DNA of 64,000 nt from Nanobdellota archaeon (GTDB lineage: Archaea; Nanobdellota; Nanobdellia; Pacearchaeales; GW2011-AR1): contig DAOWGX010000015.1 of the NCBI GenBank assembly GCA_030641715.1, forward strand, positions 560 through 64,559, given 5' to 3'. Below are positions 32,173-64,000 of this stretch, piece by piece. Numbering within the stretch: the stretch's first letter is position 1; each line of letters begins with the position of its first letter. The notes below the pieces were generated by a model. That model did not search any database, was not told where the DNA came from, and saw only the letters and a list, made by a program, of their open reading frames with translations. The position numbers and the translations under genes are program-made.

Positions 32173-32271
32173 AAAACTAGCAATAGATTTAAGTATAAAA
32201 GTTTGTCGAATATTATATAAACTAAAATTGTTTAAAAAAACTGATGATAGAAATGTTGAAGTACCAAGGGT

Positions 32272-38119: not shown

Positions 38120-38120
38120 G

Positions 38121-48430: not shown

Positions 48431-48877
48431 CTACCCCTGACTAAAGTCCGGAGCGTGACTAATCCCAATGCTTGCTCTGCGACTCCTCAATATGATACCT
48501 CCCCCTCTTCGTTGTAACACATCCGACACTCCGGGCAAAATAACCCTCGCTCCAAAACTTTTTATCCCACAAAAACTCTTGAAAAATTCAAAATGATTTT
48601 TCCTCATTATCCTCGAAGAGAAACCCTCCAGCAACTGAATAACCTGACAAGGTGCATAATTCTTGCAATTCGTTACAAAAAGGTGGATGTGTCCGGGTCC
48701 AAATTCCAAACAAACAAACTCACCATTTATCTCATTCAGTTTTTCCAGAAGATAAGTCTCGGTTAATTTCAAAACCCCCCCACTAGAGAAGATTTGTCTT
48801 CGATAAGCGACGGTCAACTGAATGTGATAGTTAAATTCACCGACGGCATGGTGGTAGTTACGTGTTTCAAATTCCAT
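48431..48877 (-). CDS. tnpA: IS200/IS605-family transposase TnpA (HUH, Y1 type), possibly degenerate.
   Basis: YHIQLTVAYRRQIF...GPGHIHLFV (HuH) ...EGFSSRIM are present. The C-terminal FGARVILPGV lacks the expected catalytic-Tyr context. Confidence 0.65.
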   Translation of the reverse strand: MEFETRNYHHAVGEFNYHIQLTVAYRRQIFSSGGVLKLTETYLLEKLNEINGEFVCLEFGPGHIHLFVTNCKNYAPCQVIQLLEGFSSRIMRKNHFEFFKSFCGIKSFGARVILPGVSDVLQRRGGGIILRSRRASIGISHAPDFSQG

Positions 48878-50301: not shown

Positions 50302-50351
50302 GTGTGTTTGTGAATATAAATATTTATAAGTCTATTGATGTTTTTTTACAC

Positions 50352-51146
50352 ATGATTAAAGCCGTAATATTTGACCTTGATGGTGTTTTGGTAGATGCTA
50401 CAGAATGGCATTATGGGGCATTAAATAGAGCATTGGCCTTATTCGGATTTAATATCGATAGGGGTCTGCATCTTTCAGAATATAACGGACTTCCAACAAA
50501 AGAAAAATTGAAAAGATTATCCAATCAGAAAGAATTTCCATTATCTTTATTAGAATTTACAAATGAGATGAAACAAAAATATACTATACAAGAAATTGAA
50601 AAAAATTGTAATCCTGTTTTCGAAAAACAATTTATGATATCTAGACTAAAAAAAGATGGTTATGTTTTAGCAGTTTGTTCTAACTCAATAAAAGAAAGTG
50701 TATTTAAAATGTTGAATAATTCAGGCATTTTAGATTATTTTGAGATGACTGTTGGAAATGATGAAGGGTACCCAAATAAACCTAGTCCGGTTATGTATAT
50801 TGAAACTATAAAAAAACTTGGCGTTTCTCCAAAAGAAGTTATTATAGTTGAGGATTCTCCCCATGGAATTAATGCAGCTAAACTTTCTGGAGCTAATGTC
50901 TGTGAAGTAAAAGGATTTTCAGAAGTTAATTATGATTTGATTAAAAAATTTATTAGAAAAATAGAATCACAAAAAAACAAAGGAAGTATCGATAACATAA
51001 GTAATGATACCCTTGAGTTAAAAAATGATAAAGCGGAAAGTATATGTGAGATTTATAATCTCCTTGGAGAGAAGTTAAATACCGATTCTAGTGAAAATAT
51101 TTTGAGAGAAATAAAAGGGATTTTAACGAGGGAAATAAAATGCTGA
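50352..51146 (+). CDS. HAD-superfamily hydrolase, subfamily IA (beta-phosphoglucomutase-like). The start is moved to MIKAVIFDLDG.
   Basis: VIFDLDGVLVD (motif I), CSNS (motif II) and VEDSPHGINAAKLSGA (motifs III/IV). Confidence 0.8.
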   Translation: MIKAVIFDLDGVLVDATEWHYGALNRALALFGFNIDRGLHLSEYNGLPTKEKLKRLSNQKEFPLSLLEFTNEMKQKYTIQEIEKNCNPVFEKQFMISRLKKDGYVLAVCSNSIKESVFKMLNNSGILDYFEMTVGNDEGYPNKPSPVMYIETIKKLGVSPKEVIIVEDSPHGINAAKLSGANVCEVKGFSEVNYDLIKKFIRKIESQKNKGSIDNISNDTLELKNDKAESICEIYNLLGEKLNTDSSENILREIKGILTREIKC

Positions 51147-51880
51147 ATATTATAATTCCGATGGCGGGGAAAGGTTCTAGATTTATAGAAAAAGGATATA
51201 CTTTTCCAAAACCTTTAATCGAGATTAAAGGGAAACCTATGATTCAATTAGTAGTTGAAAACTTAACTCCTAAGGATATTGACCATAGGTTTATTTTTAT
51301 AGTCAGAAAAGAGCATTGTGATAAATATGCCATAAAAGAACTTCTAGGTAGCATTGCTCCAGATTGTATAATAATTCCTATTGATCTAGTGACCCAAGGA
51401 GCTGCATGTACTGTTTTATTAGCGAGCAAGTATATTAATAATAATGATTCTCTTTTAATTGCAAATTCTGACCAGTACGTTGATTTTAATTTTGAAGATT
51501 ATCTTAAATTTTCAGAAAATGGTAACAATGATGGATCAATCTTAACATTTCCTTCAAATCATCCAAAATGGTCATATGCTAGGTTGGATGATGACCTGAA
51601 TGTTATAGAGGTCGCTGAAAAGAAACCAATAAGCGATAAGGCTACTGTTGGGATATATTATTTCAAAAAGGGGAGATTGTTTTGCGAGAGTGTAATGGAT
51701 ATGATTCGTAAAAATATCCGAGTGAATAATGAGTTCTATGTTTGCCCGGCCTATAATGAAGCAATCCTTAACAACAAAAAAGTATCTATTTATAATATAA
51801 CACGGGATCAAATGTGGGGGATTGGAACTCCGGAAGATTTAGAACTTTTTTTGGGCAGTGATATCGCTAATAAAATCTAA
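51140..51880 (+). CDS. Sugar-phosphate/phospho-alcohol nucleotidyltransferase (GT-A NTP_transferase fold).
   Basis: The N-terminal IIPMAGKGSRF...PKPLIEIKGKPMI is the nucleotidyltransferase signature. Size is 246 aa. Confidence 0.8.
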   Translation: MLNIIIPMAGKGSRFIEKGYTFPKPLIEIKGKPMIQLVVENLTPKDIDHRFIFIVRKEHCDKYAIKELLGSIAPDCIIIPIDLVTQGAACTVLLASKYINNNDSLLIANSDQYVDFNFEDYLKFSENGNNDGSILTFPSNHPKWSYARLDDDLNVIEVAEKKPISDKATVGIYYFKKGRLFCESVMDMIRKNIRVNNEFYVCPAYNEAILNNKKVSIYNITRDQMWGIGTPEDLELFLGSDIANKI

Positions 51881-51881
51881 T

Positions 51882-52631
51882 ATGGAAATTTTTGCACATA
51901 GAGGTATTGGTTTTGGTTTGACAGAAAATTCTATTGAGGCTTTTGAGAAATGTCTAGATAATGGGTTCTCTATAGAAGTAGATGTTCAAAAAACTTCTGA
52001 CAATAAATTAATATTACTCCATAATAAATTCATTAAGGATTATAATGGGAAAAATATTAATATAGAGCGATCTTCATTTAATGAAATTAAGTGTCATGTT
52101 TACTCTTTTAATTCTTTGTTAAATATTTTTTCAGGAAAGAAAAATAATTTAAAAATGGCAATTCATATTAAAGACGAAAATCAAGGTGATATTTTAAAAT
52201 TGGTATGTAATGAAATTTTTAATAAAAAGTTAACTGATCGCTGTTTTATTTTTGATGTTACAAAAAATGGGAGGGATAAAATAAAAAAAATCAACCCATT
52301 AATTAATATTGGTTTTTCTGTTGGAGAAAAAAGACACTCAAAAACAATTTTTTTATTGGAAGATTTGGATAAAGAGAACTACGACATTGTTTGGTGGGAT
52401 TGGTGGGGATATGAAAAATTATATACTAAAAAAAATTTAGAAAGGATTAAAAATTCACTGAAAAAAGTATATGTAATTTCTCCAGAATTGCATAAAGAGG
52501 GTAATCATCCCTCTGCTAGAAATTTGAATAGAATAGAAAATGTATGGAATGATTTAATTTCGTTGAATGTCGATGGTATCTGTACCGACTATCCCTCGAG
52601 GTTATTTAATTTTTACAATAAACATCATTAA
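51882..52631 (+). CDS. Glycerophosphodiester phosphodiesterase (GDPD) family protein. The start is moved to MEIFAHRG.
   Basis: FAHRGIGFGLTENSIEAFEKCLDNGFSIEVDVQKTSDNKLILLHN matches the GDPD HR...EN..AF...E.D motifs. Confidence 0.8.
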   Translation: MEIFAHRGIGFGLTENSIEAFEKCLDNGFSIEVDVQKTSDNKLILLHNKFIKDYNGKNINIERSSFNEIKCHVYSFNSLLNIFSGKKNNLKMAIHIKDENQGDILKLVCNEIFNKKLTDRCFIFDVTKNGRDKIKKINPLINIGFSVGEKRHSKTIFLLEDLDKENYDIVWWDWWGYEKLYTKKNLERIKNSLKKVYVISPELHKEGNHPSARNLNRIENVWNDLISLNVDGICTDYPSRLFNFYNKHH

Positions 52632-53839: not shown

Positions 53840-54859
53840 TTAGAGATTAGTCTCCATCAGAGCCTTTATAATTTTTCCCCCACAGTTATTCCAATTATAT
53901 TTCTTCATCAATTTGGCCCTAATTCCGATTTTCTGCTTTTTACTTAATTTTATAACCTCGTCCATCGCCCGGAAAACTGATTCCGAATTATAGATATCAC
54001 AAGCACCTGGAAGCCCAACACCAATTTCCTTTAACGAAGTTTTATTGTTAAACACCACGGGAGTTAAATAATTATATGACTCAATTAAAGGTAATCCGAA
54101 CCCTTCTATAGAGGACAAAAAAATTGTAAATTTAGCATCTCTATAGTATCCCGCAAGTTCCTCATCTGTCATTTCCCCATTGGAAAAAATTCCCTTATAA
54201 TTCGTTCCCTTTATCTTATTATATTCTTTCAATAACTCTATAGACCTTTCTAAATTTTTATGAGGGTTTCTGTTTCCAATTATAAAAACATAACAGTCTT
54301 TTTTTATTAGAGGTTTTTTACATTTATATTTCTCAGAGCCCAAAGGAACGACGATAATTTTTTTTGAAGTAAATTTACTAATCTGATGTTTCGAAAAATT
54401 TGAATTTGTAAAGATTAAGTCAAATCTTTTTGCAGAAATAATTAAGAGAATAGAAACAATTAGAAAAGATAACATCCATTTTTTTAAATAATATAATGGT
54501 ATTAAATCATGCATAAATCCAATATATTTTATATTTTTATATTTTTTAAAAGGGACATGTCCTTTCGGAAAAAATAATAAATCCAATTTATTTTTTATTG
54601 CAAATTTATTAGCGGACATTGGATAAAAAAATAATTTATTAAAAACATATTTCCTCCGGTTTTTCTTGATTATAAATTTTTTACATTTAAATTTTTTAAA
54701 ATATTTTTTACTTTCTTCATTCAAAATTAAGATAATTTCCAATCTTTTCTCTTTCTCCAATTCCTTCAAAATATACCTAACAACTTTAAGTATTCCGATT
54801 GATTTTGTTTTTTTGAGATTTATATCTGCACAATAATAACCTATTTTCAATTTTTTCAT
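53840..54859 (-). CDS. GT4-family (GT-B, group 1) glycosyltransferase.
   Basis: The C-terminal FLSSIEGFGLPLIESYNYLTPVV carries the EX7E motif. Confidence 0.8.
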   Translation of the reverse strand: MKKLKIGYYCADINLKKTKSIGILKVVRYILKELEKEKRLEIILILNEESKKYFKKFKCKKFIIKKNRRKYVFNKLFFYPMSANKFAIKNKLDLLFFPKGHVPFKKYKNIKYIGFMHDLIPLYYLKKWMLSFLIVSILLIISAKRFDLIFTNSNFSKHQISKFTSKKIIVVPLGSEKYKCKKPLIKKDCYVFIIGNRNPHKNLERSIELLKEYNKIKGTNYKGIFSNGEMTDEELAGYYRDAKFTIFLSSIEGFGLPLIESYNYLTPVVFNNKTSLKEIGVGLPGACDIYNSESVFRAMDEVIKLSKKQKIGIRAKLMKKYNWNNCGGKIIKALMETNL

Positions 54860-55536
54860 TATCTTATAATCTGAACTTCATTTAAATATCTCAACCCCAT
54901 CAAACTCCTCCAAACCTTCCCCCGCGAATGTCCAAAATCCGTAACCAGTCTATAAAACCATTCCAATCCGACCCCTCTAAAAATCCTCGGCGCCTCTCTT
55001 TTCTTCTCCAACAAAAAATCCATTGCTGCCCCGACATTAAAATAAAAAGTAGAATATTTTTTATATAATTGATTAGCCAGAATCTCTTGTTTAGGATTCC
55101 CAATACAAACCCAAACATAATCAGGTTTAAATTTCCCCAATTGTTCCCCAACTTTTTCAACTTCTTTTTGAGGAAAAACCATACATTTTATATAAGGAGG
55201 ATTGTACGATTTCGCCTTCTTTAATTTAGGAAATTTTTCAATCAGCCCGGCAAGGTCTTCTTCAGAGAGGCCTACAAAAAAATGTTTTTGTTTGCTATTA
55301 AGTTTATCTTGGAAAAAATCTCTTGTAAATGAAGGCCCTCGAATTTGTTTCGTTCTTAAAAAAAAACTTAATATCTTCCCATCTGGAAATATAAAATTCT
55401 CCGAAGACGATACAGCCCTTTTAAAAATTGGCTCGTTGTTAAATAAATAAACCGAATAAAGATTCTGAAAATTTAGAATTCCATCTTTGCTCGATTTTAG
55501 TATCTCTTGCGGAGTTTTTCCCGTAAAATCCATCAT
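54859..55536 (-). CDS. WecB/TagA/CpsF-family (GT26) glycosyltransferase.
   Basis: FPDGKIL...IRGPSFTRDF...FFVGLSEED...GNPKQEILANQL...NVGAAMDFLLEKKREAPRIFRGVGLEWFYRL matches the GT26 signature throughout. Confidence 0.8.
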   Translation of the reverse strand: MMDFTGKTPQEILKSSKDGILNFQNLYSVYLFNNEPIFKRAVSSSENFIFPDGKILSFFLRTKQIRGPSFTRDFFQDKLNSKQKHFFVGLSEEDLAGLIEKFPKLKKAKSYNPPYIKCMVFPQKEVEKVGEQLGKFKPDYVWVCIGNPKQEILANQLYKKYSTFYFNVGAAMDFLLEKKREAPRIFRGVGLEWFYRLVTDFGHSRGKVWRSLMGLRYLNEVQIIR

Positions 55537-55566: not shown

Positions 55567-57048
55567 CTACCCCTCCAACAACATCCTTTTCAACTTTATC
55601 CCCGTCATCCCTTCCAAGTGTTCCCTCGCCCGAGACCCAAACTTCTCCCCAATCATCCCAAGATATCTCTCACTTGTAAAATACTCGTCAAAAGCATTAT
55701 CCCTAAACTGAAGCACCTCCTTAGAAGAAAGATGATCCGTCGACAACGGTAAAGAATTATAAGAATGTTGAGAATATCCTTGCCAACCAATATCCTTAAA
55801 ATCCTCGGGCAAAGGCACTTTATTCGCAACAGATTCCGTATGCAACTTCGACCCCGGATACGCCATCGCAGAGTAAAAATTCGCCCACTCACAATTCAAT
55901 TCCTTAGCCATCTCCAACGTCTTCCCCATGCTCCCCATATCGTCGTCAGGCAACCCAAAAATATAATTCCCTCCAACATTAATACCATGATTTTTTATTT
56001 CCCCAACAACCCTATATATTTCTTCTTTCTTAAACCGACCCTTAGAAACCTTTCCCCGAACTTCATTATCCCCAGATTCAATACCCAACGCCAACCAATT
56101 TATCCCTGCCTTCTTAAATTTATCAAGATGCTCCTCCTTTGTGGTATCTACTCTCGCATACGTCCAGATATTCAAGCCATAATCCCTTTCTATCAACCCA
56201 TCCACAATTGGCATAAAATGGCTAGGTTTCAAAACGAATATTTCATCAATTAATTTAAGATTTTTAACGTCGTATTTCTTAACCAAAGTATCTATCTGCT
56301 TAAGAGTCCAGTCAGCATCCCAAGACCTATAAGATGGTCCCCCAAATGGTGCATTAATACAACAAAAAGAACACCCAAACGGGCAACCAAGCGTCGTCGA
56401 GAGTGCGGCATAATTCAACCTTGAATCCAAATCATCAAGCACATGCCAGTTATGCGCCTTATACTTATCCATCGGCAACAAATCCCAAGCAACATCATTC
56501 AATTCAGCCGGCAAATTTTTAATCAACTTCGCAGGAGGACCATTCGAAATAACATCCCCATCTCGATACCACAATCCCGGAATCGTATTTAGCGACGCAC
56601 CCTCGAGCAATCCTTCCAATGTATGAAACCCTTCCCCAACAGAAACATAATCCACAGCCTCCTCCCTAAGCGTCTTCCCAGGAAGCGCCGAAGCATGAAT
56701 CCCCGTAAGAACAACTTTCGAATCCAGATTCGCATCATTTATCTTCCTCGACAATTCTCCAATCCCAGTCATCAACGCCGTCGACGCAGAAGGATGTTGT
56801 CCATAACCGACAATATTAATCAACCGAGGAGAACGCTCTTCAATCGTCCGCACCGTTTCATCAAAATCCAGATTCTCGGCATTCGCATCCAAAATATCAA
56901 CAGAGTAATCCTTTTTTTGCATATAAGAAGCCGTCAACGCAGCCCAAAACGGAGGCTCTATCGCAGAATAATCACTACTCAAATCCTGATATATCTTCTT
57001 TCTCGTCCCGCCGACATTAACGAACAGTAAGTCTAAGTCTTTTGACAT
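55567..57048 (-). CDS. Cobalamin-binding (class B) radical SAM enzyme.
   Basis: An N-terminal B12-binding Rossmann-like region is followed by CPFGCSFC (CxxxCxxC) and a radical SAM core. The gene is markedly GC-richer than its flanks. Confidence 0.75.
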   Translation of the reverse strand: MSKDLDLLFVNVGGTRKKIYQDLSSDYSAIEPPFWAALTASYMQKKDYSVDILDANAENLDFDETVRTIEERSPRLINIVGYGQHPSASTALMTGIGELSRKINDANLDSKVVLTGIHASALPGKTLREEAVDYVSVGEGFHTLEGLLEGASLNTIPGLWYRDGDVISNGPPAKLIKNLPAELNDVAWDLLPMDKYKAHNWHVLDDLDSRLNYAALSTTLGCPFGCSFCCINAPFGGPSYRSWDADWTLKQIDTLVKKYDVKNLKLIDEIFVLKPSHFMPIVDGLIERDYGLNIWTYARVDTTKEEHLDKFKKAGINWLALGIESGDNEVRGKVSKGRFKKEEIYRVVGEIKNHGINVGGNYIFGLPDDDMGSMGKTLEMAKELNCEWANFYSAMAYPGSKLHTESVANKVPLPEDFKDIGWQGYSQHSYNSLPLSTDHLSSKEVLQFRDNAFDEYFTSERYLGMIGEKFGSRAREHLEGMTGIKLKRMLLEG

Positions 57049-57127: not shown

Positions 57128-57772
57128 TCAAATATTTTTGATAAGCTCTAATGATTTTAAATCCTTAAACTCATTAATAAAGATATCTGCGTCACTCAAA
57201 TTATTTTCTTGCAATGTTGATCCGATTGCAATGCAAAATGCGTTGGCTGCCTTAGCAGATTTAACACCAAGAGGTGCATTTTCAATAACAACACTTTCAT
57301 TAGGATTTAAATTTAGTTTTTTCATTGCATTTAGATATGGATCAGGATTAGGTTTCCCTTTCTCTGTGTCATCTCCAGATATCAAACAATCGAACTTATT
57401 CAAGAATTCCAACGGAAGAGTTTTATGAAGCTTTTCGTGTGGACTTGCAGAAACTATTGCTATTAACATTCCCTTAGATTTCAAAAAATCAATTAATTCC
57501 ATTACACCCTCATAAAAATTAACTGTATGATTTTTACGATAAAATTGATTTTTAAATTCGACCAATCTTATAAAATCTTCTTCTGCGATATTTTTCCCTA
57601 CACTAAGGGTTTTTGCAATCTCAATTAATTTCATTCCCTCTAGTATAAAATATTCCTCTTTTTGTATCGATTCCCCATATTGCTCAAACGCATTCGCCCA
57701 TGCAAGAAAATTATCTTCCATACTTTTAATGAGAACTCCATCCAAATCGAACAATATGCCTTTTACTCTCAT
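57128..57772 (-). CDS. HAD-superfamily hydrolase IA (beta-phosphoglucomutase/phosphatase-like).
   Basis: ILFDLDGVLIKS (motif I), VSAS and ENAPLGVKSAKAANA. Confidence 0.8.
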   Translation of the reverse strand: MRVKGILFDLDGVLIKSMEDNFLAWANAFEQYGESIQKEEYFILEGMKLIEIAKTLSVGKNIAEEDFIRLVEFKNQFYRKNHTVNFYEGVMELIDFLKSKGMLIAIVSASPHEKLHKTLPLEFLNKFDCLISGDDTEKGKPNPDPYLNAMKKLNLNPNESVVIENAPLGVKSAKAANAFCIAIGSTLQENNLSDADIFINEFKDLKSLELIKNI

Positions 57773-57773
57773 G

Positions 57774-58535
57774 CTAATCTAAATCAAAAATGTTTCTTTG
57801 AATATTTATAATTCTAATGTCTTTTCCCATTTTCATATCGTCCCTAAAATTTATTTTCTCATAGTTAAAAATATCTCCAGGCTGATGAACAATTTTTTCA
57901 TCTATCTCAATTTCTCCAGATATTAAAATATTTATCAATCTTTTATTTATATGTAAATAATTTTTAACAGATTCTATATCTTCAAATTTTTTTATTGAAA
58001 TACTCATGTTTCCAAATTTTTTATGAAGATCGTCACCCTTAAGAAACGTCCGTTCATATTTTGATAAATCGAAACACATCTCTTTTTTTAACTCATATCC
58101 CCTTTTTTCCCTTCCATAATTATCCTTTAATCTTAATAAATCTGTCTTCTGTGGAGGACTCTCAAGTTCCATTACCATTGCTCCATTTTTTGATATCGCT
58201 GTAGTCGAATGGAATTTTCCTTTTTCAAATACAATAACATCACCTTCTTCTAGCTCAAAGTTTTTATCTAAGGTGGATACGCTAACTTCCCCAGATAGAA
58301 CGATAAGGATTGTTTTTTTATTCGCATGACAATGCATAGAAGTCATATTTCCATTATTTAAATGGAGAATCCATATATCAGTCATCTCCCCCTTATAAGC
58401 AAGATACTCTCGTCCCCAAGGTTTTATAACTATAGCCTCCGAAAAGTCAAAATTATCAAGTTCCTTGTTAAAAGATTCCGGAATTTTTGAAATACACTGT
58501 GCATCTATTTCCGTTGTAAACGTTTCATGTATCAT
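57774..58535 (-). CDS. Bicupin protein (phosphomannose-isomerase-type cupin_2-like).
   Basis: The first cupin is KPWGREYL...HLNNGNMTSMHCHANKKTILIVLSGE. The second is INILISGEIEI...QPGDIF. Confidence 0.55.
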   Translation of the reverse strand: MIHETFTTEIDAQCISKIPESFNKELDNFDFSEAIVIKPWGREYLAYKGEMTDIWILHLNNGNMTSMHCHANKKTILIVLSGEVSVSTLDKNFELEEGDVIVFEKGKFHSTTAISKNGAMVMELESPPQKTDLLRLKDNYGREKRGYELKKEMCFDLSKYERTFLKGDDLHKKFGNMSISIKKFEDIESVKNYLHINKRLINILISGEIEIDEKIVHQPGDIFNYEKINFRDDMKMGKDIRIINIQRNIFDLD

Positions 58536-59062
58536 TTTTCCACTTCAAATAGTTCGATGGTTTTTTTCATCCAATCTCCAAGATACTTATAATGTGGACA
58601 AGAAATAATATTCCCATCTACAACAAAAGGTGCATCAACATACTCTGCTCCAGAATTATTAATATCATCTTTAATACTATAGTACCCAGATATTTTTCTG
58701 CCTTTTACAACATTTGATGAGATTAACATCTGCGCCCCGTGACAGATACTCGATATAAGCTTACTTTCACTATTCCATTTACTGATAAAATTTAGAACTC
58801 CCTCTTCTTGCCTTAATTTCTCCATGCATTTTGCTCCACCAGGAACAACTAATAAATCATAATCTTCAATTCTCATATCATCATAATCAATTACCTTAGC
58901 ATCTTTGTCCGAAGGTATCGCTGTGCCTAAAATTCCAACACATTTTTTTGCATCTTTCAACGCAGTAGTTACTTCGAAACCATCTTCCTTTAATCGATAA
59001 TAAGGATAAATAAATTCGTGATCTTGTACTAATGCTCCAGTTATTAACAATGCTTTTTTCAT
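58532..59062 (-). CDS. DJ-1/PfpI family protein (class I glutamine amidotransferase-like).
   Basis: ALLITGALVQDHEFIYPYYRL...ICHGAQMLISS carries the nucleophile-elbow Cys. Confidence 0.8.
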   Translation of the reverse strand: MKKALLITGALVQDHEFIYPYYRLKEDGFEVTTALKDAKKCVGILGTAIPSDKDAKVIDYDDMRIEDYDLLVVPGGAKCMEKLRQEEGVLNFISKWNSESKLISSICHGAQMLISSNVVKGRKISGYYSIKDDINNSGAEYVDAPFVVDGNIISCPHYKYLGDWMKKTIELFEVEK

Positions 59063-59149: not shown

Positions 59150-59653
59150 ATGCAAGAAGGAGTGGGAATCATAGTTACAAATGAAACAAGGGATAAATTT
59201 TATGTGCAGCAAAAAGATGAAGAGTATTGGATTAAGGAGTATAGATTAAAACATTGTTTTTTTGGAGGGGGGATAGAGTTAAATGAAAAAAAACTAAATG
59301 CCTTGGAAAGAGAATTAAATGAAGAGTTAACGAATGGGGTTGCAGAAGTTATCTATAAAAATTCAAAAGAAATATTTAATACTTCTTTTGTAAATACTCT
59401 CGGACAAAGCTGTAAATATTTCTTATATGAATCTATATTAACTGAAAAAAGATTAAGGGATATTTCTAAGAGACCTGTAATGGAAGGAAAATGTGGAATT
59501 TTAATAAAAAGAGAAAATCTCAACGAATACAACTTTTTTAATGAAACTTGGAAATTATTAGAACAATACATATATAATAATTCAAAGGATATGAAAGACT
59601 CTTTTTGTAATTCATTGGTATCTAATTTTGATTTCCAAAAAAGGACTATTTAA
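59150..59653 (+). CDS. NUDIX hydrolase.
   Basis: The Nudix box is GGGIELNEKKLNALERELNEEL (GX5EX7REUXEEXGU). Confidence 0.7.
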   Translation: MQEGVGIIVTNETRDKFYVQQKDEEYWIKEYRLKHCFFGGGIELNEKKLNALERELNEELTNGVAEVIYKNSKEIFNTSFVNTLGQSCKYFLYESILTEKRLRDISKRPVMEGKCGILIKRENLNEYNFFNETWKLLEQYIYNNSKDMKDSFCNSLVSNFDFQKRTI

Positions 59654-59655
59654 AT

Positions 59656-60564
59656 TTAGCTTCTTAACAGAATCAACTCCCTCACTTTTTCAACAATTTT
59701 CTTCGTAGTCGGAGTTCCATTCTCATATCTTTCAGCAGTTCCTACAGATCTATCTCCTGCACCTAACGCCTCAACATAAATCTTTGTTTGTTTCATCAAC
59801 TCATACGCTACAGACTGAGATGCCCCAGATATTTCAAACCCTGAATCAACTACAAGTCCTAATTTTGACTGTTTAAGCGGATTTAAAATTCGTTCTGACA
59901 AGTCCAATGGCTTTAGCCATAAGATATTTATAAAATTACATTTTATTCCTTCTCTCGTTAACACATCCGTAGCTTCTTTCACTTTAAATCTAGAATATCC
60001 TATTCCATAGACGGTTATTTGAGCATCCTGATGAATAACATTAGGCATTTCTTCTACTTGATTAAAACTATGCCTATGTTCGCTAACAAACATCGGATCT
60101 TCTCCTGCGAGATAATTTTTCCATACTTCTTCATATTCTCCCGGAGTCATTGGAGAACAAACCTTAAATCCAGGGACATGCATAAATATACTATGTGTTA
60201 TTCCTGAATGAACTGGGCCGGTCCCTTTTTTTTCAGTGGCAAGTGCCCGAATAAAAACAGGAGAACTAACCCCAAATATATCTTTTGATTTTGCAGAGTA
60301 ATTAATTAACATACTTGAATTTAAAAACATGAAATCTTGAAATCTCACTACAAAAATAGGTCTTCGACCAACAATCGCACAACCCGTTGCGATTCCTCCT
60401 CCCGCAACATCAGTCATTGGAAGTTCTACGATATTTTTTGTATCTGGAACAGTATTATTTACCCAGCCTACAGCACTTAGACATTGCCCCAAAATTATTC
60501 CATTATTATTCTCCAAATGTTTTCGAGTAAGCTCCCTTATTGTTTCTGCAAGTGTTTTTTCCAT
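59656..60564 (-). CDS. TPP-dependent dehydrogenase E1 beta-like subunit (transketolase-like Pyr and C-terminal domains).
   Basis: ILGQCLSAVGW...MTDVAGGGIATGCAIVGRRPIFVVRFQDFMF...CSPMTPGE follows the E1-beta/transketolase C-terminal pattern. Confidence 0.65.
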   Translation of the reverse strand: MEKTLAETIRELTRKHLENNNGIILGQCLSAVGWVNNTVPDTKNIVELPMTDVAGGGIATGCAIVGRRPIFVVRFQDFMFLNSSMLINYSAKSKDIFGVSSPVFIRALATEKKGTGPVHSGITHSIFMHVPGFKVCSPMTPGEYEEVWKNYLAGEDPMFVSEHRHSFNQVEEMPNVIHQDAQITVYGIGYSRFKVKEATDVLTREGIKCNFINILWLKPLDLSERILNPLKQSKLGLVVDSGFEISGASQSVAYELMKQTKIYVEALGAGDRSVGTAERYENGTPTTKKIVEKVRELILLRS

Positions 60565-61418
60565 AGCTCCTCCATTTCAATTTTAGTTTTTTCTTGTATC
60601 TTGAATATTTCCGATTGAGAAATTCCTCTTTTTAACAATCCCTCTTCAAATATTTCTAATCTATCTTCGTGAGGAGATCCATCTTGACCTGTACCTACAT
60701 GCCACCTATGTCTACATGTTCTACAATTAATGAATGCTGGAAGATTTGTTTTAAGATTGTTTACTGTAGAGATAATTAATTCAGGGTCATCACATATATC
60801 CTCACAAGGCATACCTACAGCCCTTAGTGCATCTGTCAATTCCCAATTCCGTCTTTCTGATTTTTTCGTCAAAATTGAAAGGTCGTTATCTTCACATATA
60901 AATAATATTGGCAATTTATTTGTTGCCGCAAATGCCATTGCTGTGAAAACATAGTCTTCTTCCGCAGCCCCATCGCCGAAAACACATAGAACAGATTTGT
61001 TTTTTGCTCCAAGTGCTGCACCAACTGCAAGTGGAACGTTTTCTCCAATCAGTCCGTGATGCCCAAACATTCCTATTTCGAAATCCTGTACTCCTGGAGA
61101 TCCACCTTTCCCTTTTGTACATCCTCCATCTCTCCCAAGCAATTCTTCAACTAATTTATCCTTATTTCCCCCAAATGCTATATATGTTGAATGGGCTCTA
61201 TGCTGTGTAAATATAAGGTTTGGATTAAAACTCGATGATACTGATGCAGATATCGCCTCTTGCCCAATAGATAAATAAACAGGGCACAGAATATCTTGTT
61301 CATCATACGCTTTTTTTACTTGCTTTTCGAAATTTCGGATAGAACACATTTTCTCAAAGATATCTAACATTACTTTTTGGTTAAAACTTTCACCTTTCAA
61401 CAGATTGTAATACTCCAT
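60537..61418 (-). CDS. TPP-dependent dehydrogenase E1 alpha-like subunit (E1_dh family).
   Basis: CPVYLSIGQEAISA...HRAH...GKGGSPG...VFGDGAAEEDYVFTAMAFAATNKLPILFICEDN matches the TPP-binding GDG...N motif of E1 alpha. Confidence 0.65.
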   Translation of the reverse strand: MEYYNLLKGESFNQKVMLDIFEKMCSIRNFEKQVKKAYDEQDILCPVYLSIGQEAISASVSSSFNPNLIFTQHRAHSTYIAFGGNKDKLVEELLGRDGGCTKGKGGSPGVQDFEIGMFGHHGLIGENVPLAVGAALGAKNKSVLCVFGDGAAEEDYVFTAMAFAATNKLPILFICEDNDLSILTKKSERRNWELTDALRAVGMPCEDICDDPELIISTVNNLKTNLPAFINCRTCRHRWHVGTGQDGSPHEDRLEIFEEGLLKRGISQSEIFKIQEKTKIEMEELWKKHLQKQ

Positions 61419-61659
61419 AGAACCAAGGTCATAAATCTATTTAAATAGTTTTATGTGTTCTATATCCTTCTTTTTCAGTTGAGTAAATATGAATCTTTTT
61501 CCTGAGGGGGTTTTCGAAAGTAGTCCTAAAATAGTATCTCTATCTTCAAATCTTAAACTGATTAAGGGTATCTAATAAATTATCAAAAAAACTAATGTTG
61601 ATTCTGAACAAGGGTAGAGCTCTCCTTATAATCATCCTTCTTAATCTCTTCAACTGGTT

Positions 61660-63102
61660 TTATTCCAATCCCAATTTTTTATTAGTTAAAAATCTATTTT
61701 GACCCTTATCTATACATTTCATTAATCTATTAACTGTAGCCATAGCCCCCTCTATCCCAAATTTTTTAATTATGGCTTCCCACCTCCACGGGGCCAAAGA
61801 AATACTAGCAAAAGCCTCATTTTGCAAATCAATCAAATCTTCAGGGGAAAGGTCGCCGACCTGCATTACTGCCGCATTATATCTCCTATAATTTGAAAAA
61901 TCCTCAGTTACTAACCTTAATCCATTTTCATGATTTTTTGCCATTTTGTAGAGTTCCGTCCCAGGATAAGGAACTGCGATACTTATATTTGCTTGTCTGA
62001 TCTCCTTTGATTCCCTCAAATATTTCAGAGTTTCTCTAATAGTTTCTTCGGTTTCTCCAGGCAACCCAATCATACAAGAATTAAGTGTTTCAATTCCATA
62101 TTTATTAGTGAGTTTATTTGCAATTCCATAACTCTCTAGTGGAATCTGTTTTCTAATTGTCTTTCTAATGTCTTTATTAACAGATTCAAGACCAAAAGAT
62201 AACCTAATTAATCCAGCATCTCTCATTTTTTTTATTAATCCTTCATCAACTAGATTTGCTCTTGTGCTACCTTCAAAAGTGATATTAAGATTAGAATCAA
62301 TGATTTTATCACAAATATCAGAAATATGTTTTTTATTAAGGGTTAAAGTATCATCTAAAAACATAAAATGCTCTATTGAATATTTTTTAACACATTCTTC
62401 CATTTCCTTAACAACTTTTTCAGGATCTCTCCTCCTAGTATCATTTCCAAAAACTTTAGTACTACAAAAAATACACTTATAAGGACAACCCCTCACAGTC
62501 ATGATGGAGGTCATTTTTTTCCGACCTTCTAATGTTCCGAGAGTATAATTATCATGATTTAGCAAATGTCTTGCAGGAACTGGTAAAGAATTTATATCCT
62601 GTACAGGCTCACAAGGACCTGTGAGTTTAACCCTACTTTGTTCTCTGTAAAGAATCCCCCCAATATCTTTTATATCCCTATTTTTATCAAGAGCATCTAA
62701 AAATTTAGACCAAGAAACTTCAGCTTCTCCAATGAATCCATAATCAAAAGGACTATTAAATACCTTTTCCTTTAAAACAGTTATATGGGCCCCTCCGATA
62801 GTAATGGGGGTCTGAGATCTTTGTTTTAATTTACTTGCGAGATCTGTAGCAATATGGTAAAAAGGAGTTGTTGCGGTAATCCCAATCAAATCAGGATTAT
62901 ATTTTGAGGTCTGATCTACCATACATTCCAAAGATAATCCCTCACTTTCCCCATCAAGAATTCGTACTTCATGACCTTTCTCCTCGGCAATTGCACCCAA
63001 ATAAGCCAAACCTAATGGAGGCCATGTAGCCCCCTTTTTAGCAAAATGAGAAATATTACCATAATCTCCCGTCCAAGAAGGATATAACAATGAAATTTTC
63101 AT
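61660..63102 (-). CDS. Cobalamin-binding (class B) radical SAM enzyme.
   Basis: The N-terminal B12-binding region (GLAYLGAIAEEKGHEVRILDG) and CPYKCIFC precede the radical SAM core. Size is 480 aa. Confidence 0.8.
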   Translation of the reverse strand: MKISLLYPSWTGDYGNISHFAKKGATWPPLGLAYLGAIAEEKGHEVRILDGESEGLSLECMVDQTSKYNPDLIGITATTPFYHIATDLASKLKQRSQTPITIGGAHITVLKEKVFNSPFDYGFIGEAEVSWSKFLDALDKNRDIKDIGGILYREQSRVKLTGPCEPVQDINSLPVPARHLLNHDNYTLGTLEGRKKMTSIMTVRGCPYKCIFCSTKVFGNDTRRRDPEKVVKEMEECVKKYSIEHFMFLDDTLTLNKKHISDICDKIIDSNLNITFEGSTRANLVDEGLIKKMRDAGLIRLSFGLESVNKDIRKTIRKQIPLESYGIANKLTNKYGIETLNSCMIGLPGETEETIRETLKYLRESKEIRQANISIAVPYPGTELYKMAKNHENGLRLVTEDFSNYRRYNAAVMQVGDLSPEDLIDLQNEAFASISLAPWRWEAIIKKFGIEGAMATVNRLMKCIDKGQNRFLTNKKLGLE

Positions 63103-63166: not shown

Positions 63167-64000
63167 CTATCTAAATATTTTTATATGGTCTAGATACTTC
63201 TTTCTCAACTGTGCAAATATAAACCTCTTCCCAGAAACAGCCTCCAAAAACAAACCATAAACAAATACCATAAATTTTACAGGATGTTTCCTCAACGAAT
63301 AAAGAACCCTTGGAAAATAATAAGTAAAAAACATTTCAGAATTTTTATCAAATTCCTTGCCAAAAAAACCTTTTCTAAAACTAACAATTTTCACCAAAGG
63401 AACTGGGACAAGCACAGTATTTTTTTTATTAGAAAACGTAATCCTCTCAGAGAAATAATCTTTCCTTATCTTTTCAAAATTATTTACAAAGAATTTCTTC
63501 GTCATAAAAAATTGATTAATATTTAAAAATTTAGAGTAGTCAGCGTCAAGATATTTAATCCCTGGAGAAAATCTGAAATAAGAATAATTCCCCAAAATTC
63601 TTGAATAAATAAAATAATCGCAACAACTAACCTCTTTCCCAGTTAATTTTAAAGAATATATCTGTAAATTATTTTTTAATTTGGAGTGGATTGTCTTACT
63701 TCTTGAAAAGGAAATATATTCGTAAGATTTTATTATCTGAAACAATTCCTTTTTAGATAATCGCATATGTTTTTCTTCGAGATTTAAAACTCGATAGTCG
63801 TATTTTGGCATATCCAAATGTGAGATATTATCTTTTGTCCTAATAATAAAATTACTAAGATCTTTTTCAAGATTAAAATTTTTCTTTATTTTTTTGTATG
63901 CTGCTTCAGCTATTTTTTCCCTCTCTTTCTCGTGTTCTAAATAATATTCTATTTTTTCAAAAAGCTCTTTTCGAGACCTAAAAAAAACAATTTCCTCATT
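63167..64000 (-). CDS. C-terminal part of a larger protein. The frame is open to the window end: the upstream segment resembles a GT4 glycosyltransferase C-terminus and is followed by a 216-aa C-terminal domain of unknown function.
   Basis: The reverse-strand frame is continuous from 64000. The upstream portion reads ...RSRKELFEKIEYYLEHEKEREKIAEAAYKKIKKNF..., a GT4-like C-terminal helix. The ORF-track Met at 63817 is internal. Confidence 0.4.
   Translation of the reverse strand, partial: NEEIVFFRSRKELFEKIEYYLEHEKEREKIAEAAYKKIKKNFNLEKDLSNFIIRTKDNISHLDMPKYDYRVLNLEEKHMRLSKKELFQIIKSYEYISFSRSKTIHSKLKNNLQIYSLKLTGKEVSCCDYFIYSRILGNYSYFRFSPGIKYLDADYSKFLNINQFFMTKKFFVNNFEKIRKDYFSERITFSNKKNTVLVPVPLVKIVSFRKGFFGKEFDKNSEMFFTYYFPRVLYSLRKHPVKFMVFVYGLFLEAVSGKRFIFAQLRKKYLDHIKIFR

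What the first reader, a model, noticed from the sequence alone, without database searches (positions are those of the whole stretch)
59656..63102. E1alpha/E1beta TPP enzyme pair with no E2/E3, operonic with a cobalamin radical SAM enzyme and a glycosyltransferase.
Three minus-strand genes form a tight operon: a class-B radical SAM, an E1_dh alpha-like subunit and a transketolase-like beta subunit (the alpha/beta overlap is 28 nt). They follow a GT-like gene and sit inside a glycosylation island. Stand-alone E1 alpha/beta pairs in sugar clusters are known to install two-carbon branches on deoxysugars, as proposed for AviB1/AviB2. A B12-rSAM methylase beside them suggests further C-alkylation. 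This would point to an unusual branched or C-methylated sugar on an archaeal glycan, which to my knowledge is not described for archaea.
Basis: partly seen in the sequence, partly recalled or inferred. Interest (0 to 1): 0.75.

Follow-up and report, generated by a model that had tools for sequence, protein, structure and literature searches.

The report
Sugar-branching thiamine enzyme cassette, archaeal glycan locus
A stand-alone two-subunit thiamine enzyme in a DPANN archaeon's glycosylation island belongs to a widespread, uncharacterised gene cassette that most likely attaches a carbon side-branch to a 3,6-dideoxy sugar, chemistry so far known only from bacterial antibiotics and lipopolysaccharides.

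Summary
The three genes are real, at the stated coordinates, with the 28-nt alpha/beta overlap. The operon is not tight. A 241-nt spacer separates the radical SAM gene from E1alpha and holds a relic of the upstream glycosyltransferase's 3' end.

The pair is a short, divergent E1 clade, far below NCBI's PDH cut-offs. At least 161 genomes encode it, from DPANN archaea to Nitrospira, Brocadia, Omnitrophota and Elusimicrobia. It nearly always sits in nucleotide-sugar clusters, and none of the loci carries E2 or E3.

The same contig encodes a bona fide GDP-mannose 4,6-dehydratase and a ColD/E1-type 3-dehydrase, which together make the acceptor type used by known branching enzymes. Across loci, 44 of 45 DegT proteins are this dehydrase type.

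New findings:
- The pair is linked to a cupin, a DJ-1 protein and a HAD hydrolase. Fusions cupin::E1alpha, E1beta::DJ-1 and cupin::HAD exist.
- The same cupin/DJ-1/HAD set also occurs with YerE-type thiamine enzymes, which indicates non-orthologous replacement.
- The conserved B12-radical SAM partner is the downstream gene (55567-57048), not the flagged one.

The chemistry is inferred, not shown. Verdict: a new variant of a known kind, interest about 0.65.

The parts
60537..61418 (-). E1alpha-like thiamine-diphosphate subunit (293 aa). ThDP motif GDG...EDND at residues 148-179 (60882-60977). Family motif CRHxWH at 60699-60716.
   Evidence: Pfam E1_dh 5e-25. NCBIfam PDH_E1_alph_y scores 145 bits against a cut-off of 394. 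AF2 model pLDDT 86.8, and the best fold match is human PDH E1alpha at TM 0.82 and 24% identity. The family alignment shows an invariant GDG..N motif and invariant R236/W239/H240.
59656..60564 (-). E1beta-like subunit (302 aa), overlapping alpha by 28 nt. An invariant Asp52 (60406-60420, PMTDV) stands where E1 enzymes carry the cofactor-activating Glu.
   Evidence: Pfam Transket_pyr plus Transketolase_C. NCBIfam 82 bits against a cut-off of 321. Profile alignment to human E1beta. AF2 model pLDDT 86.3, with PDH E1beta at TM about 0.8.
61660..63102 (-). B12-binding radical SAM enzyme no. 1 (480 aa; CPYKCIFC at 62464-62487). It belongs to a rare orthogroup and is probably a recent insertion.
   Evidence: Pfam B12-binding plus Radical_SAM. 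It reaches no NCBIfam cut-off. Its orthogroup occurs in only 3 of 81 loci, and the closest relative is from Elusimicrobia at 57% identity.
61437..61505 (-). Relic copy of the 3' end of the upstream glycosyltransferase gene, inside the 241-nt spacer 61419-61659.
   Evidence: It translates to SGKRFIFTQLKKKDIEHIKLFK*, against the GT C-terminus SGKRFIFAQLRKKYLDHIKIFR*. 43/51 nt are identical across the stop codon and the downstream bases.
63167..64000 (-). C-terminal part of a 546-aa Glyco_trans_1_2 glycosyltransferase, cut by the window end.
   Evidence: The ORF runs off the window. The full gene and its Pfam hit are in L087:6612-8252.
59150..59653 (+). NUDIX hydrolase (167 aa), convergent with E1beta. 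It holds the same position in the other DPANN loci.
   Evidence: Pfam NUDIX. It is conserved directly after E1beta in L007-L010.
58532..59062 (-). DJ-1/PfpI family protein (176 aa). The Cys107-His108 nucleophile elbow lies at 58736-58744.
   Evidence: Pfam 3e-39. E16, C107 and H108 are conserved in 33-34 of 34 relatives. E1beta::DJ-1 fusions P0157 and P0162 are 60% identical to it.
57774..58535 (-). Cupin (253 aa) with KPWGxE and the HxH...H motif (H68/H70 at 58326-58334).
   Evidence: Pfam Cupin_2, with MannoseP_isomer exactly at its cut-off. Invariant residues are listed. A weak 3-His match to cysteine dioxygenase was found. It is fused to E1alpha, to ALS-type ThDP enzymes, to HAD and to an SDR in other organisms.
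57128..57772 (-). HAD-family hydrolase (214 aa; DLDG nucleophile motif at 57737-57748).
   Evidence: Pfam HAD_2 5e-31. The best NCBIfam model is the BT2127-type diphosphatase at 147 bits, against a cut-off of 245. cupin::HAD fusions are P0265, P0266 and P0269.
55567..57048 (-). B12-binding radical SAM enzyme no. 2 (493 aa; CPFGCSFC at 56362-56385). This is the conserved radical SAM partner of the E1 pair.
   Evidence: Its orthogroup has 39 members in 32 of 81 loci, and in 14 of them it lies directly after E1beta.
53840..55536 (-). Two glycosyltransferases (WecG/TagA family at 54859-55536, GT1 at 53840-54859) that end the co-directional gene run.
   Evidence: Pfam.

Best explanation
The alpha/beta pair is a stand-alone, thiamine-diphosphate-dependent carboligase of the E1 fold.

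Proposed mechanism:
- It decarboxylates a 2-oxo acid (pyruvate or a functionalised one).
- It adds the resulting acyl-anion equivalent to the keto carbon of a nucleotide-activated 4-keto-3,6-dideoxyhexose. In this organism that is most likely GDP-4-keto-3,6-dideoxy-D-mannose, made by the Gmd and the ColD-type 3-dehydrase encoded just beyond the window end.
- The product is an acyl-branched sugar with a tertiary alcohol. It is then reduced or tailored, partly by the B12-radical SAM enzymes, and transferred by the flanking glycosyltransferases.

The pair works as one unit with the cupin, the DJ-1 protein and the HAD hydrolase. Their most likely job is to supply or condition the 2-oxo acid donor.

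Shown:
- fold and cofactor motif;
- absence of E2/E3;
- conserved gene neighbourhood;
- gene fusions;
- replacement by YerE-type enzymes in the same cassette;
- identity of Gmd and of the Lys-to-His dehydrase.

Inferred:
- the reaction itself;
- donor and acceptor identity;
- the role of the cupin/DJ-1/HAD trio;
- what the radical SAM enzymes do;
- the final glycoconjugate.
For: (1) The fold is E1alpha/E1beta with an intact ThDP motif.

(2) The pair is not a dehydrogenase-complex E1.
- Scores are far below the equivalog cut-offs.
- No E2 or E3 occurs in the window or in 87 loci.
- The counterpart of the lipoyl-acylating beta-His128 is Ala in about a quarter of the family.

(3) At least 161 genome loci exist. 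Of the 45 loci with full flanks:
- 84% carry SDR epimerase/dehydratases;
- 73% carry a GHMP kinase;
- 67% carry a DegT-family protein;
- 91% carry B12-radical SAM enzymes.

(4) 44 of 45 of those DegT proteins have His in place of the catalytic Lys. This is the hallmark of the ColD/E1 sugar 3-dehydrases. The window contig's copy best matches the Yersinia E1 dehydrase 3BCX at 1.8e-50, with its His aligned to H220.

(5) A true Gmd lies in the same gene run (570 bits against a cut-off of 415).

(6) The cupin family is fused to E1alpha in 6 loci. It is fused to ALS/YerE-type ThDP enzymes in 18 of the top 150 representatives.
- Those fusions sit beside DJ-1 and HAD genes.
- In L091 they also sit beside an NTP-transferase, a 4,6-dehydratase and a 3-dehydrase with the Lys-to-His change and the Fe-S-type Cys-rich insert of Yersinia E1.
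- No ALS-type enzyme occurs in the 87 E1-type loci.

(7) Two accessory sets are mutually exclusive: {DJ-1, cupin, HAD, GD_AH} and {class I/II aminotransferase, HMGL-like}. Counts are 46/17/17/1, Fisher p = 2e-7. The second set plainly makes 2-oxo acids, as ErwI does for ErwE (PMC9306805).

(8) Precedent exists. E1-type alphaKADH2 enzymes branch keto-sugars (PMC12247030, PMC4425429, PMC4753412).
Against: - There is no biochemical evidence for any member of this clade.
- Sequence relatedness to AviB1/B2, Pau11/12 or KbDH could not be tested, because their sequences were not obtainable here.
- This clade is shorter (293/302 aa against 325/345 aa for Pau11/12).
- The cofactor-activating Glu of the beta subunit is an invariant Asp, which is unusual for ThDP enzymes.
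- Gmd, the 3-dehydrase and the Fcl-like reductase could by themselves make a colitose-type sugar, without the E1 pair.
- A canonical 4,6-dehydratase was recognised in only a few of the other loci. Only 2 have a Gmd at 40% identity or more.
- HAD, GHMP kinase and a PMI-like cupin also fit chemistry on sugar phosphates rather than on NDP-sugars.
Confidence: 0.5

Rival explanations
1. The pair is a transketolase/DXS-like chain-building enzyme that acts on sugar phosphates. It would condense a 2-oxo acid or ketose donor with an aldose(-phosphate) aldehyde to make a longer ketose phosphate. The PMI-like cupin would then isomerise it and the HAD enzyme would dephosphorylate or mutate it. The HddA/HddC-like kinase and nucleotidyltransferase would activate the product as a GDP-sugar, for example a heptose or octose.
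For: - The cupin carries the KPWGxE motif and reaches the MannoseP_isomer cut-off.
- The HAD enzyme is beta-phosphoglucomutase/phosphatase-like.
- GHMP kinases occur in 73% of full loci. The window contig has an HddC::HddA-like fusion.
- SIS (GmhA-like) and GmhB-like genes occur in some loci.
- The beta-subunit fold also resembles split transketolase and DXS.
- L005/L019 carry a true split transketolase next to another B12-radical SAM gene.
Against: - It does not explain the near-universal 3-dehydrase type of the DegT proteins.
- It does not explain the replacement of E1 by YerE-type enzymes in the same cassette.
- The best fold matches are E1s rather than transketolase or DXS.
- Hosts such as Nitrospira and Brocadia are not expected to need an extra route to sedoheptulose phosphate. 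This is general knowledge and was not checked here.
Confidence: 0.2
2. The pair is a plain 2-oxo acid decarboxylase or acyloin-cleaving enzyme. It would make or trim a non-sugar substituent, such as an aldehyde, alcohol or acyl unit later attached to the glycan. Alternatively it would shorten a 2-keto-3-deoxy sugar acid by one carbon, with no C-branching.
For: - GD_AH (altronate/galactarate dehydratase family) genes, which produce 2-keto-3-deoxy acids, occur in 13 loci next to DJ-1 and HAD.
- The aminotransferase plus HMGL-like plus E1 plus SDR plus cytidylyltransferase order in L003/L015 resembles routes to CDP-alcohols.
- DJ-1 proteins convert 2-oxoaldehydes to 2-hydroxy acids (general knowledge).
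Against: - The same context evidence that favours a keto-sugar acceptor applies here.
- The interchange with YerE-type carboligases argues for ligation.
- Simple decarboxylases of this fold are not known without an acceptor. This is from my own knowledge.
Confidence: 0.15
3. The pair is an ordinary catabolic pyruvate/acetoin/branched-chain dehydrogenase E1, with E2 and E3 encoded elsewhere in the genome.
For: - Pfam and NCBIfam name the domains after PDH E1.
- The best solved structures are PDH and BCKDH E1.
- Source annotations call relatives pyruvate or acetoin dehydrogenase subunits.
- The alpha His equivalent to human H263 is conserved.
Against: - Scores are 2.7- to 4-fold below the curated cut-offs.
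- Identity to solved E1s is only 20-24%.
- No E2 or E3 occurs in 87 loci or in the window.
- The genes are always embedded in sugar clusters.
- Fusions to cupin and DJ-1 exist.
- Both subunits are shortened, and the phosphorylation loop is replaced.
Confidence: 0.03

Closest known systems
alphaKADH2-type (E1alpha/E1beta) sugar C-branching enzymes of actinomycete natural products: AviB1/AviB2 (avilamycin), Pau11/Pau12 (paulomycin), the aldgamycin enzyme, KbDH-alpha/beta (kibdelomycin)
   Same: - It is a two-subunit E1 fold without E2/E3.
- It is encoded inside a deoxysugar pathway that produces a keto-sugar.
- In that class the function is transfer of an acyl-anion equivalent from pyruvate to the sugar ketone (PMC12247030, PMC4425429, PMC4753412).
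   Different: - This clade is shorter (293/302 aa against 325/345 aa for Pau11/12).
- It occurs in cell-surface glycan loci of uncultivated bacteria and DPANN archaea, not in antibiotic clusters.
- It is tied by gene order and by fusions to a cupin, a DJ-1 protein and a HAD hydrolase.
- It is accompanied by B12-radical SAM enzymes in about 90% of loci.
- It has Asp instead of the cofactor-activating Glu.
- Sequence relationship to the characterised enzymes was not tested.
YerE / ErwE / MygE: acetolactate-synthase-like ThDP enzymes that branch CDP-4-keto-3,6-dideoxyglucose in lipopolysaccharide sugars (yersiniose, erwiniose, gastriose)
   Same: - The proposed acceptor type is the same, a 4-keto-3,6-dideoxyhexose made by a 4,6-dehydratase plus an E1/ColD-type 3-dehydrase.
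- The logic is the same, with dedicated enzymes making the 2-oxo acid donor (PMC9306805).
- Enzymes of that fold replace the E1 pair inside the same cupin/DJ-1/HAD cassette.
   Different: - The ThDP-enzyme superfamily is different: TPP_enzyme_N/M/C in a single chain, against split E1alpha/beta.
- The nucleotide carrier here is probably GDP, since Gmd is present.
- No flavin-binding middle domain is present.
E1 component of pyruvate / branched-chain / acetoin dehydrogenase complexes
   Same: - The overall alpha2beta2-type fold is shared.
- The GDG...N ThDP motif is shared.
- The alpha-subunit His is conserved.
   Different: - No E2 or E3 partner is present.
- Scores fall below the family cut-offs.
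- Beta Glu59 is replaced by Asp.
- Beta His128 is not conserved across the clade.
- The phospho-loop and the C-terminal part of alpha are replaced.
- The genomic context is purely glycan biosynthesis.
Colitose pathway (Gmd, ColD, ColC) and ascarylose/yersiniose 3-deoxygenation (E1/E3)
   Same: The genes just beyond the window end encode a Gmd above its equivalog cut-off, a DegT protein with the Lys-to-His change, and an Fcl/ColC-like SDR.
   Different: These genes are joined to a ThDP enzyme cassette and to B12-radical SAM enzymes. The Fe-S insert of Yersinia E1 is absent, so the dehydrase is ColD-like.

Membership tests
2-oxo acid dehydrogenase complex E1 (PDH/BCKDH/acetoin) | Reaches the curated family score (NCBIfam equivalogs TIGR03181/TIGR03182 for alpha, NF006667/NF008854 for beta) | tested here: not met
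   Alpha scores 145.5 bits against 393.85, and beta 82.3 against 321.
2-oxo acid dehydrogenase complex E1 (PDH/BCKDH/acetoin) | E1alpha/E1beta fold with a ThDP-binding GDG...N motif | tested here: met
   Pfam, alignment A1, and Foldseek TM 0.8 to human and bacterial E1.
2-oxo acid dehydrogenase complex E1 (PDH/BCKDH/acetoin) | Partner E2 (lipoyl acyltransferase) and E3 genes | tested here: not met
   None occurs in the 64-kb window, in L087, or by motif in 1378 ORFs of 87 loci. The rest of this genome could not be searched.
2-oxo acid dehydrogenase complex E1 (PDH/BCKDH/acetoin) | Catalytic residues: beta Glu59 (cofactor activation), beta His128 and alpha His263 (reductive acylation); human numbering from memory | tested here: inconclusive
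   Beta Glu59 aligns to an invariant Asp. Beta His128 is His in the window protein but Ala in about 25% of the clade. The alpha His is conserved.
alphaKADH2-type sugar C-branching enzymes (AviB1/B2, Pau11/12, KbDH) | Stand-alone alpha/beta pair inside a deoxysugar pathway that yields an NDP-ketosugar | tested here: met
   Gmd plus a Lys-to-His 3-dehydrase lie in the same gene run. The context is conserved in 81 loci.
alphaKADH2-type sugar C-branching enzymes (AviB1/B2, Pau11/12, KbDH) | Sequence clustering with the characterised members | not tested
   The sequences of AviB1 (AAK83190), AviB2 (AAK83191), Pau11/12 and KbDH could not be retrieved with these tools. No actinomycete appears among the 80 best genome loci.
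alphaKADH2-type sugar C-branching enzymes (AviB1/B2, Pau11/12, KbDH) | 2-oxo acid-dependent carboligation onto a sugar ketone | not testable with these tools
   This needs enzyme assays.
YerE-type (ALS-like) sugar branching enzymes | Single chain with TPP_enzyme_N, _M and _C domains | tested here: not met
   The window pair is E1_dh plus Transket_pyr/Transketolase_C. It is a functional analogue only, as inferred from cassette replacement.
Class B (cobalamin-binding) radical SAM enzymes | N-terminal B12-binding domain plus a radical SAM core with CxxxCxxC | tested here: met
   Both genes meet this: Pfam PF02310 plus PF04055, with CPYKCIFC and CPFGCSFC.
Class B (cobalamin-binding) radical SAM enzymes | Assignment to a characterised subfamily (methylase, ring-contraction and others) | tested here: not met
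   The best NCBIfam hits (BchE 205 against 481, HpnJ 175 against 578 and 128 against 578) are all far below their cut-offs.
ColD / E1 (RfbH) PMP-dependent sugar 3-dehydrases (the 'DegT' gene of the contig) | Active-site Lys replaced by His | tested here: met
   FSYYVAHIV aligns with SFYPAHHIT of 3BCX, and the H220K variant 3BB8 shows the position. 44 of 45 homologues in E1 loci carry His.

The most novel reading that the evidence does not exclude
The window shows one instance of an unrecognised, modular 'branching cassette'. It consists of DJ-1, cupin, HAD, an interchangeable ThDP carboligase (split E1-type or ALS/YerE-type) and one to four B12-radical SAM enzymes. The cassette would build acyl-branched, further C-alkylated 3,6-dideoxy sugars for cell-surface glycans. 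It would be spread by horizontal transfer among anaerobic and uncultivated bacteria and into DPANN archaea, and would be the first branched-chain sugar pathway in Archaea. The cupin and DJ-1 proteins would form a physical complex with the E1 heterotetramer to channel an unstable 2-oxo acid or dicarbonyl donor.
Probability: 0.3. Interest if true: 0.8.

Novelty: new variant of a known kind. Interest (0 to 1): 0.65.

Why it matters
**New biology.** If the inference holds, C-branched sugars would extend from actinomycete antibiotics and a few Gram-negative lipopolysaccharides to the surface glycans of many uncultivated lineages. These include DPANN archaea, CPR bacteria, anammox bacteria, Nitrospira and Omnitrophota. 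Such glycans probably mediate cell-cell contact.

**New catalysts.** The clade is a large, compact family of carboligases that could form tertiary alcohols, which biocatalysis groups are actively looking for.

**Testable leads.** The fusions to cupin and DJ-1 point to a multi-enzyme complex with no described counterpart. The near-obligatory B12-radical SAM partners could reveal new C-alkylation chemistry on sugars.

**Annotation.** These genes are currently labelled pyruvate or acetoin dehydrogenase subunits. That label would wrongly credit small-genome symbionts with central-metabolic capacity.

Tried and rejected
- **Phosphonate cluster** (B12-radical SAM plus HAD plus cupin plus a split decarboxylase). 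Dropped. The ThDP pair is E1-type, not the Ppd/ComDE type. No PEP mutase-like gene appears among the annotated genes of 33-64 kb or L087.
- **Methionine-salvage-like pair** (HAD enolase-phosphatase plus acireductone-dioxygenase cupin) as the source of a 2-oxo acid. It is chemically attractive, but there is no ARD Pfam hit, only a weak cysteine-dioxygenase-like 3-His match. Many hosts are anaerobes. Kept only as a lead.
- **Closer solved structure.** A search found only generic PDH/BCKDH E1 at 20-24% identity.
It was repeated with database hits.
- **Literature.** Searches for the gene combination (radical SAM, DJ-1, cupin, E1; YerE, cupin, DJ-1) found nothing relevant. The BT2127 lead gave no context information. 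The primary papers Krug 2024 and Treede 2005 are not held.
- **Classification of the 140 SDR genes** in related loci. 22 are Fcl-like, but canonical 4,6-dehydratases are few. The nucleotide carrier in most other loci therefore stays open.
- **Word-indexed cupin search.** It returned only 23 relatives and no fusions. The exhaustive profile search was needed.
- **Organism name.** The cluster look-up gave no name for the organism.

Full report
**1. What is in the sequence**

- a 480-aa B12-binding radical SAM protein (61660-63102);
- a 293-aa E1_dh protein (60537-61418);
- a 302-aa Transket_pyr/Transketolase_C protein (59656-60564).

Alpha and beta overlap by 28 nt. A comparable overlap recurs in homologous loci.

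- DJ-1/PfpI (58532-59062);
- a 253-aa cupin (57774-58535);
- a HAD hydrolase (57128-57772);
- a second B12-radical SAM gene (55567-57048);
- a WecG/TagA glycosyltransferase (54859-55536);
- a GT1 glycosyltransferase (53840-54859).

One convergent NUDIX gene (59150-59653) interrupts the run.

The 'GT-like' gene upstream is the C-terminal half of a 546-aa Glyco_trans_1_2 protein cut by the window end.

The wider region is a glycosylation island. It holds AglB/STT3 at 35456-38119, plus GT4, GT11, GT2/92, GT17, methyltransferases, an epimerase, an NTP-transferase and an IS200-type transposase gene. G+C drops to 25-30% in its middle.

Archaeal markers place the organism in Archaea: L10P, a Taw1-like radical SAM protein, SecY, an AMP-phosphorylase-like protein and an IF-2B-family protein. 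The closest relatives of every cassette protein come from Nanoarchaeota, Pacearchaeota and Woesearchaeota MAGs. The window therefore comes from a DPANN archaeon.

**2. Corrections to the observation**

The three genes are not a tight operon. A 241-nt spacer lies between the radical SAM stop codon and the E1alpha start codon.

The spacer contains a degenerate duplicate of the 3' end of the GT gene. It covers the last 22 codons, the stop and the following bases. It translates to SGKRFIFTQLKKKDIEHIKLFK*, against SGKRFIFAQLRKKYLDHIKIFR* in the GT, with 43/51 nt identical.

The flagged radical SAM gene also belongs to a rare orthogroup. It occurs in only 3 of 81 loci, and its nearest relative is from Elusimicrobia at 57% identity. 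The second radical SAM gene (55567-57048) belongs to the conserved orthogroup. That group has 39 members in 32 loci, and in 14 of them the gene lies directly after E1beta.

The simplest reading is that the upstream radical SAM gene was inserted between the GT gene and E1alpha with a junction duplication.

**3. The pair is not a dehydrogenase-complex E1**

- NCBIfam scores are 145 bits against a cut-off of 394 (alpha) and 82 against 321 (beta).
- The best solved relatives are human and bacterial PDH/BCKDH E1 at only 20-24% identity. The fold is nevertheless clearly the same: AF2 pLDDT is 87 and 86, and TM is about 0.8.
- The ThDP motif GDG...EDN is invariant.
- The alpha loop YRYHGHS of PDH is replaced by CRHxWH. 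The His is kept and the phospho-serine is lost.
- In beta, the Glu that activates the cofactor in E1 enzymes aligns, without gaps and beside the conserved GIAVGAA, to an invariant Asp.
- The His that helps acylate lipoamide is Ala in about a quarter of the clade.
- No E2 or E3 exists in the window, in the extended contig, or by signature motif in 1378 ORFs of 87 related loci.

The residue roles come from my own knowledge of PDH E1. The motif test is crude.

**4. Distribution and context**

A scan of one genome per species found 161 loci encoding the short E1alpha. They come from:
- DPANN archaea;
- Nitrospira;
- Ca. Brocadia;
- Omnitrophota;
- Elusimicrobia;
- Deltaproteobacteria;
- Verrucomicrobia;
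- Planctomycetes;
- Patescibacteria;
- Magnetospirillum;
- Acutalibacter.

I called ORFs on 80 of these loci plus the window and clustered them. Frequencies in the 45 loci with full 10-kb flanks were:

| Gene class | Share of loci |
|---|---|
| B12-radical SAM | 91% |
| SDR epimerase/dehydratase | 84% |
| GHMP kinase | 73% |
| DegT-family protein | 67% |
| DJ-1 | 51% |
| Cupin | 40% |
| HAD | 40% |
| Class I/II aminotransferase | 29% |

Typical gene orders are DJ-1-(SDR)-cupin-HAD-E1a-E1b and E1a-E1b-(NUDIX)-DJ-1-cupin-HAD.

**5. The acceptor side**

The exact contig continues beyond the window end (L087). It encodes:
- a DegT-family protein;
- an HddC::HddA-like nucleotidyltransferase-kinase fusion;
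- a GDP-mannose 4,6-dehydratase that passes its equivalog cut-off (570 against 415 bits);
- an Fcl/ColC-like SDR;
- a flippase.

The DegT protein reads FSYYVAHIVSCGDGG, with His where aminotransferases have the PLP-binding Lys. Its best solved relative is the Yersinia CDP-6-deoxy-L-threo-D-glycero-4-hexulose 3-dehydrase at 1.8e-50. The His aligns with H220 of that enzyme, and the H220K variant 3BB8 marks the position. ColD follows at 1e-37.

Across the related loci, 44 of 45 DegT-cluster proteins carry this His.

Gmd plus a ColD-type dehydrase yields GDP-4-keto-3,6-dideoxymannose. This is the GDP analogue of the CDP-4-keto-3,6-dideoxyglucose that YerE and ErwE branch (PMC9306805).

**6. Rosetta-stone evidence**

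Several fusions tie the cassette genes together:
- In six loci the cupin is fused to E1alpha. One example is L036:8928-10556, 33% identical over 200 residues, E = 1e-34.
- E1beta is fused to DJ-1 in P0157, P0162 and L011.
- An exhaustive profile search with the cupin found 432 representatives at E = 1e-30 or better. Among the best 150:
  - 18 are proteins of 833-884 aa in which the cupin is fused to an acetolactate-synthase/YerE-type ThDP enzyme;
  - three are cupin::HAD fusions;
  - one is an Fcl-like SDR::cupin fusion;
  - one is an ATP-grasp::cupin fusion.

The cupin::ThDP genes sit next to DJ-1 and HAD genes in all four contigs examined. In L091 they also sit next to an NTP-transferase, a 4,6-dehydratase and a 3-dehydrase. 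That dehydrase has the Lys-to-His change and the Cys-rich Fe-S-type insert of Yersinia E1.

No ALS-type enzyme occurs in the 87 E1-type loci.

The same accessory set thus works with either of the two ThDP-enzyme superfamilies that the literature credits with sugar branching (PMC12247030). This is the strongest argument that the E1 pair is a carboligase and a functional analogue of YerE.

**7. The accessory genes**

Two accessory sets are almost mutually exclusive: {DJ-1, cupin, HAD, GD_AH} and {class I/II aminotransferase, HMGL-like}. The counts are 46/17/17/1, Fisher p = 2e-7.

The second set obviously produces 2-oxo acids. It parallels the aldolase that feeds ErwE (PMC9306805).

I therefore infer, with low confidence, that DJ-1, cupin and HAD also supply or condition the donor. 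Supporting details:
- DJ-1 keeps its Glu/Cys-His catalytic residues.
- The cupin keeps an HxH...H site plus a PMI-like KPWGxE motif.
- The HAD enzyme keeps its DxD nucleophile motif.

An alternative is that the cupin isomerises the NDP-ketosugar, as the SDR::cupin fusion hints.

What the B12-radical SAM enzymes do is unknown. They match no curated subfamily. Their number, up to four per locus, suggests repeated C-alkylation, but this is a guess.

**8. Comparison with what is known**

E1-type 'alphaKADH2' enzymes that add a two-carbon branch to keto-sugars are established in actinomycete pathways (PMC12247030, PMC4425429, PMC4753412):
- aldgamycin, by knockouts;
- KbDH-alpha/beta, in vitro;
- AviB1/B2;
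- Pau11/12, by pau11 knockout and complementation.

This clade shares the split E1 fold, the absence of E2/E3 and the deoxysugar context. It differs in:
- size;
- hosts;
- cell-surface glycan context;
- cupin/DJ-1/HAD coupling;
- B12-radical SAM partners;
- the Asp-for-Glu change.

I could not obtain the sequences of the characterised enzymes, so membership by descent is untested.

Searches of the open-access library found no description of this cassette. An in-silico survey of about 120 alphaKADH2 clusters (Krug 2024) is not held, so I cannot exclude that it covers part of this family.

**9. Verdict**

| Explanation | Estimate |
|---|---|
| Acyl-branching carboligase | about 0.5 |
| Sugar-phosphate chain builder | 0.2 |
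| Non-branching decarboxylase role | 0.15 |
| Catabolic E1 | 0.03 |

The finding is a new variant of a known kind. Interest is 0.65.

Noticed in passing
window 61437-61505 (minus strand): A relic duplicate of the last 22 codons, the stop and the downstream bases of the upstream glycosyltransferase gene sits just before E1alpha. This suggests that the B12-radical SAM gene 61660-63102 was inserted there by a junction-duplicating event. An archaeal TATA-like TTTAAATA lies about 20 nt upstream of the E1alpha start codon.
   Followed up: partly
window 60406-60420 (beta residues 49-53); alignments A2 and A3: The cofactor-activating Glu of E1/transketolase-type ThDP enzymes is an invariant Asp in this whole clade. 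I know of no characterised E1 with this substitution.
   Followed up: partly
L089:812-3364, L090:2146-4725, L091:3372-5915, L092:10001-12655: Proteins of about 850 aa fuse the same cupin family to an ALS/YerE-type ThDP enzyme. Each has DJ-1 and HAD genes nearby (adjacent in L089; one or two genes away in L090-L092). L090, L091 and L092 also carry a second unfused ALS-type ThDP gene of about 600 aa beside the fusion. L092 carries an additional longer E1 pair (334/352 aa) as well.
   Followed up: partly
L005:4011-7316 and L019 (Elusimicrobia): A split transketolase pair (Transketolase_N plus Transket_pyr/Transketolase_C), preceded by its own B12-radical SAM gene, lies in the same locus as the E1 pair. 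Two different ThDP systems thus each pair with a B12-radical SAM enzyme.
   Followed up: no
window 38091-38972: A GT11-family (fucosyltransferase-type) glycosyltransferase occurs in an archaeal island. From memory, colitosyltransferases such as WbgN also belong to GT11. It could therefore be the transferase for a GDP-linked 3,6-dideoxy sugar.
   Followed up: no
window 34224-35240, next to AglB (35456-38119): A radical SAM/SPASM protein is encoded directly upstream of the oligosaccharyltransferase gene. Its function is unknown.
   Followed up: no
window 48431-48877; G+C profile 38-54 kb: An IS200/Y1-type transposase gene lies in the lowest-G+C part of the island (25-30%, against 36-40% in the ribosomal-protein region). 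This fits a horizontally assembled glycan island.
   Followed up: no
window 11601-13079 and 31351-32346: An AMP-phosphorylase-like (Glycos_transf_3) protein and an IF-2B-family protein (ribose-1,5-bisphosphate isomerase family) are encoded here. Both are parts of the archaeal nucleotide-salvage route that feeds form III RuBisCO. No RuBisCO gene was looked for.
   Followed up: no
Nitrospira loci L022, L027, L030, L038, L051, L052: A fixed gene order recurs: DegT(His), SDR, SDR, GHMP kinase, adh_short, class I/II aminotransferase, E1a, E1b, B12-radical SAM, an unknown 351-aa protein, B12-radical SAM, and a glycosyltransferase/methyltransferase of more than 1400 aa. An HD-GYP-like and a PilZ-like gene lie upstream.
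   Followed up: no
window 50304-52631: A second HAD (beta-phosphoglucomutase-like) gene, an NTP-transferase gene and a GDPD (glycerophosphodiester phosphodiesterase) gene form a small plus-strand operon with overlapping ends. It may be a separate sugar- or glycerol-phosphate activation module.
   Followed up: no
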